Virus record (IMG/VR): IMGVR_UViG_2537561618_000006
Length of the DNA stretch: 15,817 bases
Direction: 5' to 3' (one strand)
From: a virus
Lineage: Duplodnaviria; Heunggongvirae; Uroviricota; Caudoviricetes
Shown: positions 9,615-15,817 of the stretch, one piece after another
How positions within the stretch are numbered: the first letter of the stretch is position 1
Layout of the letters: the number at the start of each line of letters is the position of its first letter
The notes under the pieces: model-generated
The model's input: the letters and a program-made list of their open reading frames with translations, nothing else
Databases searched by the model: none
Told to the model about the DNA's origin: nothing
Translations under genes and position numbers: made by a program

Positions 9615-9641
9615 GAGCGGGAGCTAAATGCTCCCGTTTTT
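9615..9641 (+). terminator. Putative rho-independent terminator downstream of the major capsid gene
   Basis: GC-rich hairpin cgggagc-taaat-gctcccg (stem 9618-9624 / 9630-9636) followed by ttttt at 9637-9641. Confidence 0.6.
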
Positions 9642-9660
9642 CATTCAATCAGGAGCGGGT

Positions 9661-10047
9661 ATGGCTACGAAAGAAGAAAACCTGAAACGTCTTTGTGAGC
9701 TGGCTGAGAGGCTGGGGCGTGAACCGGATGTCTCCGGTAGTGCGGCAGATATTGCGCAGCGAGTGGCGGAACTGGAGGAAGAGCTTGGAGATGCGGGGGA
9801 GGTCGCAGAGCCGGATACGTACTCACCATCGAAAGATGATCCGACCGCGCATAAAGGCGAGTCAGTTCCTGAACAGCCAGGCATTGTTACCGGAGACGAA
9901 ACGGGGCAGGTTACGGTGGTGGCACTGGCGACACTGCATACAAAATGTAATGGTTCAGTGATATTTGTTTCACCGGGAACGTCGTTTCGTGTTTCTGCTG
10001 AGGTGGCTGCCAGCATGGCGGCAGGTGGTCTGGCAAAAAGGCAGTAA
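9661..10047 (+). CDS. FI: DNA packaging protein (lambda FI-like)
   Basis: Start MATKEENL after aggagcgggt; C-terminal VTVVALATLHT...VSPGTSFRVSAEVAASMAAGGLAKRQ matches lambda FI (VTVVALVKLHT...LPGTAFRVSAGVAAEMTERGLARMQ). Confidence 0.8.
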   Translation: MATKEENLKRLCELAERLGREPDVSGSAADIAQRVAELEEELGDAGEVAEPDTYSPSKDDPTAHKGESVPEQPGIVTGDETGQVTVVALATLHTKCNGSVIFVSPGTSFRVSAEVAASMAAGGLAKRQ

Positions 10048-10058
10048 CAGGAGATGTC

Positions 10059-10436
10059 GTGGACGGTTTCGATAATCTGTTTGATGCTGCGCTTGCCGGT
10101 GTCAATGAAGTCATTCTCCGTGATATGGGGATCAGCGCCGTCATTACGTCCGGAGAACTTGAGGGGACACACCTGACAGGGGTTTTTGATGATCCCGAAA
10201 GTATTTCTTTTGTTGCCGGGGGGATCCGGCTTGAGGATTCCTCACCGTGCCTGTTTGTGAAAACGGCAGATATATCGCAGTTACGCCGTCAGGATACGTT
10301 AACTATCGGGGATGATTCTTTCTTTGTGGATCGTATTACTCCGGATGACGGGGGATGCTGTTATATCCGGTTAAGGCGGGGCAGTCCTGCCCCACAGAAT
10401 AATGCCAGAATGAGGCGATATGATGAAGGGACTTGA
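10059..10436 (+). CDS. FII: Head-tail joining protein (lambda FII-like)
   Basis: GTG start; (M)DGFDNLFDAA..., GVFDDPESISF, LRRQDTLTIGDDSFFVDRITPDDGG match lambda FII. Confidence 0.85.
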   Translation: MDGFDNLFDAALAGVNEVILRDMGISAVITSGELEGTHLTGVFDDPESISFVAGGIRLEDSSPCLFVKTADISQLRRQDTLTIGDDSFFVDRITPDDGGCCYIRLRRGSPAPQNNARMRRYDEGT

Positions 10437-11007
10437 GAATGCCATCCGCAATCTGAACAGCCTCGATACCCGCATGGTGCCACAGACCAGCGCATGGGCG
10501 GTAAACCGTGTGGCGGCAAAGATTGTTTCTGTCGCCACACGGCAGGTTGCGCAGAATACCGTTGCCGGGGATAACCAGGTGAAAGGTATTCCCCTGAAAA
10601 CGGTCAGGGAGCGTGTCAGGCTGCTTAAAGCCAGCCCCTCAGGAAAAATGTATGCCCGCATGCGTGTTAACCGGGGTAACCTGCCCGCCATTAAGCTGGG
10701 TACCGCACAGGTCAGACTGGCCCGCTCCCGGCATGGCAGCAACTCACGTCATCGTGGCAGCGTACTGAAAGTGGGGAAATACCTTTTCCGGGATGCGTTT
10801 ATTCAGCAACTGGCGAATGGTCGCTGGCATGTGATGCGGCGTATTGACGGCAAAAATCGTTACCCCATTGATGTGGTGAAAATCCCGATGTCCGGACCGC
10901 TGACACAGGCATTTGAAGATGCCCGCGACCGCATCATTGCTGCGGAAATGCCGAAACAGCTGGGGTATGCCCTGAAACAACAACTGAGGTTACATCTGAG
11001 TAAATGA
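10420..11007 (+). CDS. Z: Tail completion protein (lambda gpZ-like)
   Basis: MMKGLENAIRNL..., LPAIKLG, FIQQLANGRWHVMRRIDGKNRYPIDVVKIPM, LGYALKQQLR match lambda gpZ. Confidence 0.85.
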   Translation: MMKGLENAIRNLNSLDTRMVPQTSAWAVNRVAAKIVSVATRQVAQNTVAGDNQVKGIPLKTVRERVRLLKASPSGKMYARMRVNRGNLPAIKLGTAQVRLARSRHGSNSRHRGSVLKVGKYLFRDAFIQQLANGRWHVMRRIDGKNRYPIDVVKIPMSGPLTQAFEDARDRIIAAEMPKQLGYALKQQLRLHLSK

Positions 11008-11405
11008 ACCGACACACACAAATCCGTCAGAGCGTGCTGGCACGCCTTCGGGAACAGTGTGGAGACAGCGCCACGTTTTTTGACGGGCTTCCGGCATTTA
11101 TTGATGCGCAGGAACTGCCTGCCGTGGCGGTGTGGCTGAGTGATGCTCAGTACACCGGAAAAATGACGGATGAAGATGACTGGCAGGCTGTTCTGCATAT
11201 TGCCGTCTTCATCCGGGCACAGGCACCGGATTCAGAGCTGGATATGTGGATGGAGAGCACCATTTTCCCGGCCCTGAATGATGTACCGGCACTTTCCGGA
11301 CTCATCGACACCCTGAACCCACTCGGTTTTAACTATCAACGTGATAATGAGATGGCTACCTGGGCGATGGCGGAAATCACGTACCAGATCACGTACACGA
11401 ATTAA
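11004..11405 (+). CDS. U: Tail terminator protein (lambda gpU-like)
   Basis: ATFFDG, LPAVAVWLSDAQYTG, PDSELDMWMES, ITYQITY match lambda gpU; ATGA overlap with the Z stop. Confidence 0.9.
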   Translation: MNRHTQIRQSVLARLREQCGDSATFFDGLPAFIDAQELPAVAVWLSDAQYTGKMTDEDDWQAVLHIAVFIRAQAPDSELDMWMESTIFPALNDVPALSGLIDTLNPLGFNYQRDNEMATWAMAEITYQITYTN

Positions 11406-11415
11406 GGAGGTGGTA

Positions 11416-12156
11416 ATGACCACACCAAATCCACTGGCAAAGACGAAAGGTGCGGGGACGACGTTCTGGATGTATACCGGCAACGGCGATGCGTTTGCGA
11501 ACCCTTTGTCGGACACTGACTGGCTGCGTCTTGCGATGGTGAAGGATCTGCAACCTGGCGAAATGACCGCTGATGCAGAAGATGACACTTATCTCGATGA
11601 TGAAGATGCAGACTGGAAAACGACAACCCAGGGGCAGAAATCCGTTGGTGATACTTCGGCGACGCTGGCCTGGCGTCCGGGTGACAGCGGGCAGAAAAAA
11701 CTGGTTCAGTTGTTCGACTCCGGTGAAGTCTGCGCGTTTCGTATCAAATATCCCAACGGCACTGTTGATGTTTTCCGCGGCTGGCTGAGCTCACTGGGTA
11801 AAACCATTGCCTCAAAAGACGTGATGACCCGCACTGTGAAAATCAGCGGTGTGGGGCGTCCGTATCTGGCAGAGGAAGGCACTGAAACCGTGGGTGTTAC
11901 CGGACTGACGGTGGCACCGGCATCTGTCAGTGTCAAAGCGGGAGCAACCACCACACTGACCTTTACAGTAAAACCTGACGGGGCCAGTGACAAAGCGATC
12001 AGTGTGCATTCGTCAGATCCTCAGACTGCTTCGGTGACCCTGAGCGGGCTTGTGGCCACGGTGAAAGGCGTGAAGCAGGGCAGTGTCAGCATCGTGGGCA
12101 TGACCTCTGACGGAGAGTTTGTGGCAGTGGCTGCGGTGACCGTCAGCGCACCATAA
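11416..12156 (+). CDS. V: Major tail tube protein (lambda gpV-like) with C-terminal Ig-like domain
   Basis: Start MTTPNPLAKTKGAGTTFW after aaggagg; YLDDEDADW, GDTSATLAW, KYPNGTVDVFRGW, TRTVKISGVGRP match lambda gpV; C-terminal ~80 aa is T/V/S-rich as in the gpV Big_2-like domain. Confidence 0.9.
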   Translation: MTTPNPLAKTKGAGTTFWMYTGNGDAFANPLSDTDWLRLAMVKDLQPGEMTADAEDDTYLDDEDADWKTTTQGQKSVGDTSATLAWRPGDSGQKKLVQLFDSGEVCAFRIKYPNGTVDVFRGWLSSLGKTIASKDVMTRTVKISGVGRPYLAEEGTETVGVTGLTVAPASVSVKAGATTTLTFTVKPDGASDKAISVHSSDPQTASVTLSGLVATVKGVKQGSVSIVGMTSDGEFVAVAAVTVSAP

Positions 12157-12175
12157 CAGGACGATACTCATCATT

Positions 12176-12198
12176 GCCCCGGTTATCCGGGGCTTTTT
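12176..12198 (+). terminator. Putative rho-independent terminator downstream of the major tail gene
   Basis: Hairpin gccccgg-ttat-ccggggc (12176-12182 / 12187-12193) followed by ttttt at 12194-12198. Confidence 0.6.
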
Positions 12199-12211
12199 GC
12201 ATCCGGAGAAC

Positions 12212-12601
12212 ATGATGTTTCTGAAACAGGATACGTTTAATTATGAAAAACAGTCCGTGGTGCTCAGTGAGCTGTCCGGGCTGCAGAGAATTGAATATCT
12301 GACGTTTGTTCAGCAGCGAACGGCAAAGTTTGATGCACAGGAGGGAGAACTGCCGGAGGCTGAACGACAGATTGCTTTTCTGCGTATGGGAATGGATATC
12401 AATGCCTGGCTGGTTTCCCGCTCACTGTGGAATGCTGAGCAGTCTCAGGATGTTGAGACGCTTTGCGCATCCATTATGACAACATGGTCGTATGATGCGC
12501 TGGGCGCGGGGGCGGAGAGGGTTCTGTCGCTGAGCGGTATGGGGACCATTGAGAATGCCGGGGATGATGATCATGAGGCGCTGACGCCGGAAAAGTCCTG
12601 A
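12212..12601 (+). CDS. G: Tail assembly chaperone (lambda gpG-like)
   Basis: MMFLKQDTF..., VVLSELSGLQRIEYL, LTTW-like region match lambda gpG (MFLKTESFEHNGVTVTLSELSALQRIEHL...). Confidence 0.85.
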   Translation: MMFLKQDTFNYEKQSVVLSELSGLQRIEYLTFVQQRTAKFDAQEGELPEAERQIAFLRMGMDINAWLVSRSLWNAEQSQDVETLCASIMTTWSYDALGAGAERVLSLSGMGTIENAGDDDHEALTPEKS

Positions 12602-12939
12602 CGCGGGAAATGCAGTTTGTCATGCGGCTTGCCCGGGAGTTCCGGCGGGCAGACTGGCGGCGGATGCTGTCGGATATGTCGGCCACTGAGCTTGGTGAGT
12701 GGGGCGATTATTTCCGGATGCAGAGCTTCAGTGATGTGTGGATGGATGCGCAGTTTGCCTCGCTGAAGGCATTGATCGTGAGAATGGTGTCCGGCAGCAG
12801 CGATGCTGCGGTGGCTGATTTCAGCCTTTTACCGGAAGAGAACGGGATACCGGAGCGAACGGACGAAGAACTGATGCATCTTGGGGAAGGTATTTCCGGA
12901 GGTGTGCGTTATGGACCAGATAGCCAACCTGGTCATTGA
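12577..12939 (+). CDS. T: Tail assembly protein T-frame segment, expected to be made as a G-T fusion by -1 programmed frameshift
   Basis: Open frame in the -1 phase relative to G, beginning 24 nt before the G stop and ending 29 nt inside H; position and overlap geometry identical to lambda G/T. Confidence 0.7.
   Translation, partial: GADAGKVLTREMQFVMRLAREFRRADWRRMLSDMSATELGEWGDYFRMQSFSDVWMDAQFASLKALIVRMVSGSSDAAVADFSLLPEENGIPERTDEELMHLGEGISGGVRYGPDSQPGH
12589..12595 (+). other. Candidate -1 slippery heptamer for G-T frameshifting (G GAA AAG)
   Basis: The only heptamer within the 12577-12601 G/T overlap with an A-AAG lysine slip site; lambda uses G GGA AAG at the equivalent place. Confidence 0.4.
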
Positions 12940-15647
12940 TTTGGGGATTGATGCGGCAGAGTTTAAAAATGAAATTCCCCGTATCAAAAACCTTCTGAAT
13001 GGTGCAGCCAGCGATGCAGAACGGTCTTCTGCCCGTATGCAGCGTTTTATGGAGCGTCAGACTCAGGCGGCCCGGCAGACAATGCAGGCGGCTTCTTCGG
13101 CTGCAACAGCAGCATCAGCCCATGCGCAGACGGTGGAGAAGAATGCACGGGCTCATGAACGCATGGCCCGTGAGGTGGAACAAACCCGTCTGCGCGTGGA
13201 TGCCCTGAATCAGAAAATGCGCGAGGAACAGGCGCAGGCCAGGGCGGCTCAGCTGGGGGTAAGCAGTGCTGCAGAAGTGTATATCCGCAAAATGGAGCGG
13301 GCAGGAAAAGCCACACATTCGCTGGGGCTGAAAAGTGCGGCAGCCCGGCGGGAGCTGGGGGTGTTAATCAGTCAGATGGCGCGCGGCAATTTTGGTGCGC
13401 TGAGGGGATCCGGGATAACGCTGGCTAACCGTGCCGGATGGACAGGCGCACTGATGTCGCCGAAAGGCATGATGACTGGCGGCGTTATTGGCGGACTTGT
13501 CGCGGCGGTCCTGGGTCTGGGTAAAGCCTGGCATGACGGCCGGAAGGAGGGCGAGAAATTTAACCGTCAGCTGGCGCTGACGGGACATTATGCCGGTGTC
13601 ACTGTCGGGCAGTTGTGGAAACTCAGCCGGGCCATATCCGGGAATGGTATCACGCAACATGCGGCAGCCGGTGCGCTGGCACAGGTGGTGGGCAGTGGGG
13701 CATTTCATGGAAACGATATTGGTATGGTGGCGAAAGCTGCCGCACAGATGGAGCGATCGGTTGGCCAGTCGGTCAGCGATACCATAAATCAGTTTAAGCG
13801 GCTGAAGGATGATCCTGTAAATGCCGCGAAGGCGCTGGACAATGCGCTGCATTTTTTGAATGCCACTCAGCTTGAGCAGATACGCGTCCTTGGGGAGCAG
13901 GGGCGGTCCAGTGATGCGGCCGGATCGCCATGTCTGCGCTGGCAGAGGAAACCGGTAAACGCACATCTGATATTGATAATAATCTCAATGCGCTGGGTAG
14001 TACGCTGCAAACCTTGTCTGACTGGTGGAAGCAGTTCTGGGATGCGGCCATGAATATTGGTCGTGAAGACTCGCTGGATGCGCAGATTGATGCGTTACAG
14101 GAAAAAATTCAGCGCGCGAAAAAATATCCGTGGACAAACGCCTCCACACAGGTGGAGTACGATCAGCAGCGTCTTAACGATCTTCAGGAGAAAAAACGCC
14201 GGAAGGATTTGCAGGATGCAAAAGCGCAGGCAGAACGGAATTACCAGGAGCAACAGAAACGCCGGAATGCTGAAAATGCCGCGCTGAACCGGATGAATGA
14301 AACGGAAGCTGCACGACATCAGCGGGAAATTTGCGCGTATTAATGCCATGCAGTACGCCGACCAGGCTGTCAGGGATGCGGCGATACAGCGTGAAAATGA
14401 ACGTTACGAAAAAGCCATTAGAAAAATACACGGGCAACCCGTAATGATGAGGCACCCGGTTATTGCTGCAGTACAGTCAGCAGCAGGCACAGGTGGAAGG
14501 GCAGATTGCTGCTGCCAGACAGTCAGCAGGCATTGCCACTGAAAGGATGACTGAAGCGCATAAACAGCTTCTGGCCCTGCAGCAGCGCATCAGCGACCTG
14601 GACGGGAAAAAGCTGACGGCAGATGAAAAGAGTGTGCTGGCCCGTAAGAATGAGCTGATTCAGGCGCTGACGCTGCTGGATGTGAAACAGCAGGAGCTGC
14701 AGAAACAGACAGCGCTTAACGACCTGAGAAAAAAAACGGTTCAGCTGACCAGCCAGCTGGCAGACAAAGAACGTGCACTGCGTGAGCAGCACAATCTGGA
14801 TATTGCCACTGCAGGTATGGGGGATAAGCAGCGGCAGCGCTACCAGGCACAGTTGCGCATCCGGCAGGAATACCGGCAACAGTTGCAACAGCTTGAGAAT
14901 GACAGTCGCCAGAAAGGCACTTACGGGACGGAGGACTACCGGAGGGCTGAGGAGGTGCTGAAGGGGAGCCTGAAGCGACAACTGAATGAAAACAAACGCT
15001 ACTGGCAGGAACTGGAAGTGGCGCAGGGCGACTGGAAAAACGGTGCCATGCGGGCGTTTCAGAATTTTACGGCGGATGCGGATAATGCGGCGGGAACGGC
15101 AGAACAGATGTTTACAGTGGCATTCAGCAGTGCCGGTAATGCACTGGCGACATTCTGTACCACCGGTAAGCTGAATTTTAAATCCTTCACCTCTTCCCTG
15201 TTGTCAGATATGGCCAGAATTATGGCACAGATGGCCATGATGCAGGCGGTAAAGGGCGTCGGTTCTTTATTCGGCTTCACGACTAATGCTGATGGCGGTG
15301 TTTACCAGTCTGCTGATTTGAGTCGCTACAGTGGCACGGTGGTTAACCGTCCGACGTTTTTTGCTTTTGCAAAAGGCGCGGGTGTGATGGGGGAAGCGGG
15401 AACTGAAGCCATTCTGCCACTGCGTCGCGGTGCTGATGGTAAGCTGGGGGTTGTGGCGGATACTGGTGGTTCAGGCATGGTGATGTTTGCCCCGCAGTAC
15501 AACATTGAGATCAATAACGACGGCACGAACGGGCAGATAGGTCCGGCTGCCCTGAAGGTGGTTTATGACCTCGGGAAAAAAGCGGCCGCGGACTTTATGC
15601 AACAGCAGGCCCGTGATGGTGGCCGGTTAAGTGGAGCATACCGGTAA
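12911..15647 (+). pseudogene. H: Tail tape measure protein (lambda gpH-like), reading frame broken at three points
   Basis: N-terminus MDQIANLVIDLGIDAAEF... matches lambda H MAEPVGDLVVDLSLDAARF; C-terminus EINNDGTNGQIGPAALKVVYDLGKK...RDGGRLSG matches lambda VINNDGTNGQIGPAALKAVYDMARK...RDGGLFSG. Coding frame changes near 13919-13926, within 14297-14343 and near 14451-14475. Confidence 0.85.
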
Positions 15648-15817
15648 TGGAGACGTTTCACTGGAAAGTGCGCCCGGATATGAATGTGGTATCAGAGCCG
15701 AAAGTGGTGACAGTGAAGCTGGGCGATGGTTATGAACAGCGTCGTGCGGCGGGACTGAATAACCAGTTGTCGACTTACAGCGTGACGATACGTGTTCGTA
15801 AAGGTGAACACCCATCT
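15647..15817 (+). CDS. M: Minor tail protein (lambda gpM-like), N-terminal part; continues beyond window
   Basis: ATG overlapping the H stop (taATGg); METFHWKVRPDMNVVSEPKVVTVKLGDGYEQRRAAGLNNQLSTYSVTI matches lambda M MKTFRWKVKPGMDVASVPSVRKVRFGDGYSQRAPAGLNANLKTYSVTL. Confidence 0.8.
   Translation, partial: METFHWKVRPDMNVVSEPKVVTVKLGDGYEQRRAAGLNNQLSTYSVTIRVRKGEHPS

What the first reader, a model, noticed from the sequence alone, without database searches (positions are those of the whole stretch)
13915..14475. Tape measure gene changes frame three times in about 550 bp
The H reading frame goes 2 to 1 (near 13919-13926, consistent with a 1-nt loss around gccggatcg), back to 2 (within 14297-14343), then to 0 (near 14451-14475). 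Each segment is coiled-coil-like and the flanking segments match lambda H at both termini. The first two changes cancel and the third does not, so as written the gene cannot yield a full-length protein in any single frame.
Basis: seen in the sequence. Interest (0 to 1): 0.5.

Follow-up and report, generated by a model that had tools for sequence, protein, structure and literature searches.

The report
Tape-measure frameshifts are draft-assembly errors
The lambda-like tail tape-measure gene in this Shigella flexneri prophage contig looks broken by four single-base slips, but an independent assembly of the same strain's raw reads gives one intact 912-codon gene, so the breaks are almost certainly consensus errors in the deposited draft.

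Summary
The frame changes are in the sequence, but there are four, not three. They are -C at 13920 (CCC>CC), +T at 14330 (TT>TTT), -A at 14420 (AA>A) and -C at 14453 (CC>C), giving frames 2>1>2>1>0. The window is the whole contig AFHC01000022.1 of the 2011 draft of Shigella flexneri 4343-70.

Eleven related loci from complete Shigella and enteroinvasive E. coli genomes all carry the intact version at all four sites. The contig differs from the closest of them by only 4 substitutions and 5 one-base indels in 14.4 kb.

A Logan assembly of SRA run SRR060520 is decisive. It carries this strain's private substitutions, so it is the same strain. It matches the window base for base over 7,829 bp and 4,945 bp, except at these four indels. 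It encodes one continuous 912-aa tape measure protein.

The frameshifts are therefore consensus errors, all changes in the length of a short single-base run, clustered in 534 bp inside a stretch present in two copies in related genomes. They produced three spurious GenBank proteins (EGJ90351-3).

By contrast, a +T frameshift in the portal gene (6039) and a 303-bp in-frame deletion in the tape measure gene (13238) are shared with other assemblies and are real. Interest is very low.

The parts
12911..15647 (+). Lambda gpH-type tail tape measure gene, 912-aa allele once repaired. As written it is split into pieces of 380 aa (12911-14053), 97 aa (14050-14343) and 394 aa (14463-15647).
   Evidence: ORFs. 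Gene calls and Pfam TMP_2, TMP_4 and Tape_meas_lam_C. Repairing the four sites gives 912 aa that differ by one residue (P832T) from a Shigella protein seen on 995 contigs.
13920..13921 (+). Error site 1: CC where every relative and the read-based assembly have CCC (1-nt deletion; frame 2 to 1).
14330..14332 (+). Error site 2: TTT where the others have TT (1-nt insertion; frame 1 to 2).
14420..14420 (+). Error site 3: a single A where the others have AA (1-nt deletion; frame 2 to 1).
   Evidence: segment tracing.
14453..14453 (+). Error site 4: a single C where the others have CC (1-nt deletion; frame 1 to 0).
13238..13245 (+). Junction of a real 303-bp (101-codon) in-frame deletion relative to the 1013-aa allele. 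The 8-bp sequence GCCAGGGC is present at both ends of the deleted segment in the long allele.
   Evidence: The same deletion allele is intact (912 aa) in complete genomes L009, L010 and L012 and on 995 contigs.
15402..15402 (+). Strain-private substitution C>A (P832T). It is real, being reproduced by the read-based assembly, and it serves as the marker tying SRR060520 to this strain.

Best explanation
The four frame changes are base-calling or consensus errors in the deposited draft contig (AFHC01000022.1, Shigella flexneri 4343-70). Each is a +/-1 miscount of a short single-base run. In the strain itself the gene is one continuous 2,739-nt ORF. It encodes a 912-aa lambda-H-type tape measure protein, the short allele with a real 303-bp in-frame deletion.

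Shown: the positions of the indels, their absence from every relative, and their absence from an independent assembly of this strain's reads.

Inferred: the cause. The likely cause is low-quality or low-depth consensus, typical of flow-based (454-type) sequencing, in the part of the contig that extends into a two-copy prophage tail module.
For: 1. The window is the whole contig AFHC01000022.1 of GCA_000213475.2, which is S. flexneri 4343-70.

2. Against the complete S. flexneri genome LR213452.1 (L010), the contig has only 4 substitutions and 5 one-base indels in 14.4 kb. Four of the indels lie within 534 bp of the tape measure gene.

3. All 11 related loci (L001, L003-L012, from 8 independent complete genomes) carry the intact state at all four sites. 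So do 5 further draft contigs.

4. Logan contig SRR060520_403 is 100% identical to window 2633-10461, including the strain-private substitutions at 6147 and 8021.

5. Logan contig SRR060520_242 covers window 10873-15817 with 0 mismatches and exactly 4 gaps, which are the four indels. It encodes an intact 912-aa protein carrying the strain-private P832T.

6. The broken products (380, 97 and 394 aa) occur in no other contig of the collection.

7. Error signature: all 5 private indels change the length of a single-base run.
   - The indel-to-substitution ratio is 5:3 among the window's private changes. The binomial P is about 4e-4 if one assumes 1 indel per 10 mutations; the script ran the binomial for assumed shares of 0.05, 0.1 and 0.2, and none of these rates was measured here.
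   - At least 4 of 5 indels falling within 534 bp of 14.4 kb has P of about 8e-4 by simulation.

8. Apart from the indels, the repaired protein shows no decay: one amino-acid difference in 912.
Against: 1. I could not see individual reads or SRA metadata. That SRR060520 is strain 4343-70 is inferred from shared private variants, not read from a record.

2. The Logan run may be the same reads that were used for the deposit. It is an independent assembly, not independent data.

3. The tail module from 10852 onward is present in two 99.9%-identical copies in complete S. flexneri genomes, and the Logan contig starts right at that boundary. It may therefore be a collapse of two copies, and a de Bruijn assembler could have discarded a minority variant path.

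4. The prophage is already defective: it has a real portal frameshift and IS elements. Real decay of this gene would therefore not be surprising a priori.

5. The sequencing platform of the deposit could not be confirmed from the literature searched.
Confidence: 0.93

Rival explanations
1. Genuine pseudogenisation. Strain 4343-70 really carries the four 1-nt indels, either in its only copy or in one of two copies of the tail module, as part of the decay of a defective Shigella prophage. The read-based assembly would then have masked them by choosing the intact path.
For: The prophage is demonstrably decaying. A +T frameshift splits the portal gene and is shared by three complete genomes and by the Logan assembly. 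IS elements replace the left arm. The module is two-copy in relatives, so a collapsed assembly could hide a variant copy.
Against: The Logan contig runs 11.6 kb without a break and takes the intact state at all four sites. No other assembly among about 1,000 contigs carrying this allele shows any of the indels. Four indels with no substitution within about 1 kb on either side, and a repaired protein that is essentially identical to the common allele, do not fit neutral decay. Clustering within about one read length points to a technical cause.
Confidence: 0.05
2. Programmed recoding. The ribosome or RNA polymerase slips at the four sites, so a full-length protein is still made from the sequence as written.
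For: None beyond the fact that the indels sit in short single-base runs. Lambda-like tail operons do use one programmed -1 frameshift, but in G/T, not in H.
Against: None of the four sites has a slippery heptamer in the required frame and direction. AAATTTG at 14327-14333 is created by the inserted T and would need a +1 shift, not a -1 shift. The runs are 1-3 nt, far too short for transcriptional slippage. Four serial events would give negligible yield. No relative has the indels, so nothing is conserved.
Confidence: 0.005

Closest known systems
Bacteriophage lambda gpH tail tape measure protein (Pfam TMP_2, TMP_4, Tape_meas_lam_C)
   Same: The domain content and order match. The gene sits between the G/T tail-assembly chaperone genes and the M-like minor tail gene. 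The sequence is 87% identical at DNA level to the annotated tape measure genes of lambdoid phages such as mEp460, cdtI and Ayreon.
   Different: As deposited it is not a single ORF, though it is in the read-based assembly. This allele is 912 aa, against 1013 aa for the long allele in the same prophage family, because of a 303-bp in-frame deletion.
Run-length miscalls in early draft assemblies (typical of 454 or Ion Torrent flow sequencing; from my own knowledge)
   Same: Every private indel is a +/-1 change in a run of identical bases. The ratio of indels to substitutions is high. The errors cluster over roughly one read length. They disappear in a k-mer-filtered reassembly of the reads.
   Different: The affected runs are short (2-3 nt in the true sequence), whereas flow-sequencing errors are commonest in long runs. 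The platform of this deposit could not be confirmed with the tools.
Genuine frameshift pseudogenes of Shigella prophages, for example the portal gene of this same contig
   Same: A single-base change in a single-base run (T5>T6 at 6039-6044) splits a structural gene into two ORFs.
   Different: The portal frameshift is shared by three independent complete genomes and by the Logan assembly. The four tape-measure indels are found only in this deposit.

Membership tests
Lambda gpH-type tape measure protein | N-terminal TMP_2 domain and C-terminal Tape_meas_lam_C domain | tested here: met
   On the repaired-equivalent 912-aa protein: PF06791 at 2.8e-46, PF24622 at 1.3e-16 and PF09718 at 2.2e-24. 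The same domains are split between the 380-aa and 394-aa pieces of the window.
Lambda gpH-type tape measure protein | Position in the tail operon, directly after the G/T chaperone genes and before the M-like minor tail gene | tested here: met
   Gene order is Phage_TAC_2, Phage_tail_T, tape measure, Phage_min_tail in the window and in all relatives.
Lambda gpH-type tape measure protein | One continuous long ORF | tested here: inconclusive
   Not met in the window as written: four frames. Met in the Logan assembly of the same strain's reads, at 912 aa, and in all relatives.
Frameshift pseudogene (real mutation) | The disrupting mutation is reproducible in independent assemblies or reads of the same strain or lineage | tested here: not met
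   It is absent from Logan contig SRR060520_242, from 11 related loci and from 5 further drafts. The portal frameshift at 6039 does meet this test.
Programmed ribosomal frameshift or transcriptional slippage | A slippery motif at the shift site, with the frameshifted arrangement conserved among relatives | tested here: not met
   The sequence shows no suitable heptamer or long single-base run at any of the four sites. All relatives have a plain in-frame gene.
Sequencing or consensus error | The difference is confined to one deposit and vanishes on reassembly of the reads | tested here: met
   Searches show the products are unique to AFHC01000022.1. Searches show the reassembly is intact.
Sequencing or consensus error | Read-level support: low depth or quality at the sites, with a majority of reads carrying the intact allele | not testable with these tools
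   No access to reads, quality values or SRA metadata.

The most novel reading that the evidence does not exclude
Strain 4343-70 carries two copies of the tail module. One copy really acquired a tight cluster of four 1-nt indels within 534 bp with no accompanying substitutions, as in a localised error-prone repair patch. The de Bruijn reassembly hid that copy by taking the intact path at each of the four sites.
Probability: 0.03. Interest if true: 0.3.

Novelty: not a real feature. Interest (0 to 1): 0.03.

Why it matters
It matters only for database hygiene. The errors created three spurious GenBank proteins (EGJ90351.1, 380 aa; EGJ90352.1, a 97-aa 'hypothetical'; EGJ90353.1, 394 aa), and they make an intact tape measure gene look like a pseudogene. 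Counts of pseudogenes in Shigella prophages that use this draft would overstate decay. The same contig also supplies a useful internal contrast: its real portal frameshift is shared across assemblies, and the tape-measure indels are not.

Tried and rejected
1. **Programmed frameshifting or transcriptional slippage.** Rejected. There are no slippery motifs and no conservation, and four serial shifts would be needed.

2. **A shared Shigella pseudogene allele.** Rejected. Complete genomes with the same 912-aa deletion allele (L009, L010, L012) and the exact intact protein on 995 contigs show a continuous frame.

3. **The 394-aa C-terminal piece as a real polymorphism.** With P832 instead of T832 this piece turned up on 19 other contigs, which looked like support for a real break at 14453. 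It is not. Those contigs simply start inside the gene, and their DNA is intact at 14420 and 14453.

4. **N-terminal products expected if only a subset of the indels were real** (477, 543, 546 and 546 aa). None exists in the collection.

5. **Literature searches for the sequencing platform of AFHC00000000 / strain 4343-70.** They gave the strain's identity but no platform.

6. **Direct look-up of the repaired protein as plain letters.** The look-up worked through the listing of cluster members and the resulting protein id.

Full report
**What is in the sequence**

The window's ORF table shows the tape measure region cut into four overlapping ORFs on the + strand. They are 12881..14053 (frame 2), 13930..14343 (frame 1), 14297..14542 (frame 2) and 14463..15647 (frame 0). 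The true start is the ATG at 12911. The pieces carry Pfam TMP_2 in the first piece, and TMP_4 plus Tape_meas_lam_C in the last. The gene lies between the G/T chaperone genes and an M-like minor tail gene. The DNA is 87% identical to the annotated tape measure genes of lambdoid coliphages.

**Where exactly the frame changes are**

Megablast against complete E. coli genomes found nine records at 99% identity or more. In the fetched record CFSAN029787 (L001) the gene is annotated as a single intact 3,042-nt CDS. Alignment to that locus shows a 303-bp in-frame deletion at 13238 and four single-base indels:

| Site | Change | Frame |
|---|---|---|
| 13920 | -C (CCC>CC) | 2 to 1 |
| 14330 | +T (TT>TTT) | 1 to 2 |
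| 14420 | -A (AA>A) | 2 to 1 |
| 14453 | -C (CC>C) | 1 to 0 |

Putting the four bases right gives a 912-aa ORF.

**Where the window comes from**

An exact look-up of the 380-aa N-terminal product found one contig only. That contig is AFHC01000022.1 of GCA_000213475.2, 15,817 bp long, which is the whole window. Two papers and the GenBank protein names identify this as the draft genome of Shigella flexneri 4343-70.

**Comparison with close relatives**

The tail tube protein of the window occurs in 7,471 blocks of the collection. In ten loci from seven complete genomes of 4.4-4.7 Mb, a size that fits Shigella flexneri, the neighbouring tape measure gene is a single ORF of either 1013 or 912 aa. 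The 912-aa form has the same 303-bp deletion as the window, and that exact protein has been seen on 995 contigs.

Against the closest locus (L010, LR213452.1) the window differs over 14.4 kb by 4 substitutions and 5 one-base indels. Four of the indels are in the tape measure gene, and one is an A5>A6 change in an IS element at 2451. At each of the four tape-measure sites, all eleven related loci agree with one another and disagree with the window.

A T5>T6 frameshift that splits the portal gene at 6039 behaves differently. It is shared by three complete S. flexneri genomes, which shows what a real pseudogene mutation looks like in this data set.

**The decisive test**

The window's S49 protease carries a private Thr>Ile change at 8021. 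Looking that exact protein up found one other contig, Logan assembly SRR060520_403. That contig is 100% identical to window 2633-10461, including the private changes at 6147 and 8021 and the portal T6. SRR060520 is therefore a read set of this strain (inferred from shared private variants).

I then built the products expected if all, or only some, of the four indels were absent. The fully repaired 912-aa protein carrying the strain's private P832T exists in the collection, from Logan only, on one contig. None of the partially repaired N-terminal products exists.

That contig is SRR060520_242 (11,618 bp). It covers window 10873-15817 with 0 mismatches and exactly four gaps, which are the four indels. 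An assembly made from the strain's raw reads thus supports one continuous 2,739-nt frame.

**A false lead**

The 394-aa C-terminal piece with P832 is recorded on 19 other contigs. Those contigs begin inside the gene, and their DNA is intact at 14420 and 14453. The short product there is a contig-edge gene call.

**Why errors, and why here (inferred)**

- All five private indels change the length of a run of identical bases.
- Among the window's private changes, indels outnumber substitutions 5 to 3. This is very unlikely for real divergence: the binomial P is about 4e-4 under an assumed 1-in-10 indel share, an illustrative rate rather than a measured one.
- Four of the five indels lie within 534 bp (simulated P of about 8e-4), which is about one read length.
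- All four lie in the part of the contig (10852 onward) that is a two-copy, 99.9%-identical tail module in complete S. flexneri genomes. The unique 7.8 kb upstream is error-free against the Logan contig.
- A consensus built from few or poor reads where a contig was extended into a repeat would produce this pattern. Run-length miscounts are typical of flow-based sequencing (my own knowledge). I could not confirm the platform.

**Remaining doubt**

I saw assemblies, not reads. The Logan contig may collapse two copies, so a broken second copy is not strictly excluded. I put that at about 3-5%. Programmed recoding is excluded for practical purposes, because there are no slippery motifs, no conservation, and four serial shifts would be needed.

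**Verdict**

The biology behind it is an intact 912-aa lambda-H-type tape measure gene. The frameshifts are an artefact of the deposited draft and have propagated into three spurious protein records (EGJ90351.1, EGJ90352.1, EGJ90353.1). It is not a real feature, and interest is very low.

Noticed in passing
window 13238-13245: A real 303-bp (101-codon) in-frame deletion in the tape measure gene relative to the 1013-aa allele. It is bounded in the long allele by the 8-bp direct repeat GCCAGGGC and removes residues 113-213. Both alleles are common in Shigella (995 and at least 1000 contigs) and both are intact ORFs. By the lambda ruler rule (my own knowledge), the short allele would give a tail about 15 nm shorter.
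   Followed up: partly
window 6039-6044 (portal gene, ORFs 5051..6106 and 6231..6644): A T6 run where an enteroinvasive E. coli relative has T5 splits the portal gene. Unlike the tape-measure indels, this frameshift is shared by three complete S. flexneri genomes and by the Logan assembly of the strain's reads, so it is a genuine pseudogene mutation. The prophage is defective.
   Followed up: yes
window 2451-2456 (IS3-family transposase ORF ending at 2459): An A6 run where eight other copies of the same IS element in complete genomes have A5. It truncates the transposase ORF. It is probably a fifth consensus error of the same kind, but the Logan contigs do not cover this repeated element, so it could not be checked.
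   Followed up: partly
window 10852-15817; L009 and L010 9437-20741: From the Z gene onward, the tail module is present in two 99.9%-identical copies in complete S. flexneri genomes, attached to different left arms. The Logan contig starts 21 nt inside this boundary. All four tape-measure errors lie in this repeated part of the contig.
   Followed up: partly
window 6147, 8021, 15402: Three substitutions are private to this strain: TTTCC>TTCCC in the portal remnant, Thr>Ile in the S49 protease, and P832T in the tape measure protein. All three are reproduced by the Logan assembly, so they are real strain markers. Two of them sit at boundaries between single-base runs and had looked like possible flow-sequencing errors.
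   Followed up: yes
window 12589-12595 (end of the G gene, stop at 12599-12601; T frame open from about 12576): The G and T chaperone genes have the overlapping -1 arrangement of lambda G/GT. The heptamer at the expected place reads G GAA AAG rather than lambda's G GGA AAG (lambda motif from my own knowledge). Whether it supports the programmed -1 frameshift was not examined.
   Followed up: no
L016 7152-10632; L009 and L010 16609-20089 (outside the window): In the genomes with the 912-aa tape measure allele, the J tail-tip gene is called as two pieces (912 + 255 aa) instead of one of 1159 aa. This suggests a further real disruption in this prophage lineage.
   Followed up: no
window 1-2660: The left end of the contig consists of IS-element fragments (rve-domain transposase ORFs on both strands) abutting a shortened Nu1 terminase gene. 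The prophage's left arm has been replaced or interrupted by IS elements.
   Followed up: no
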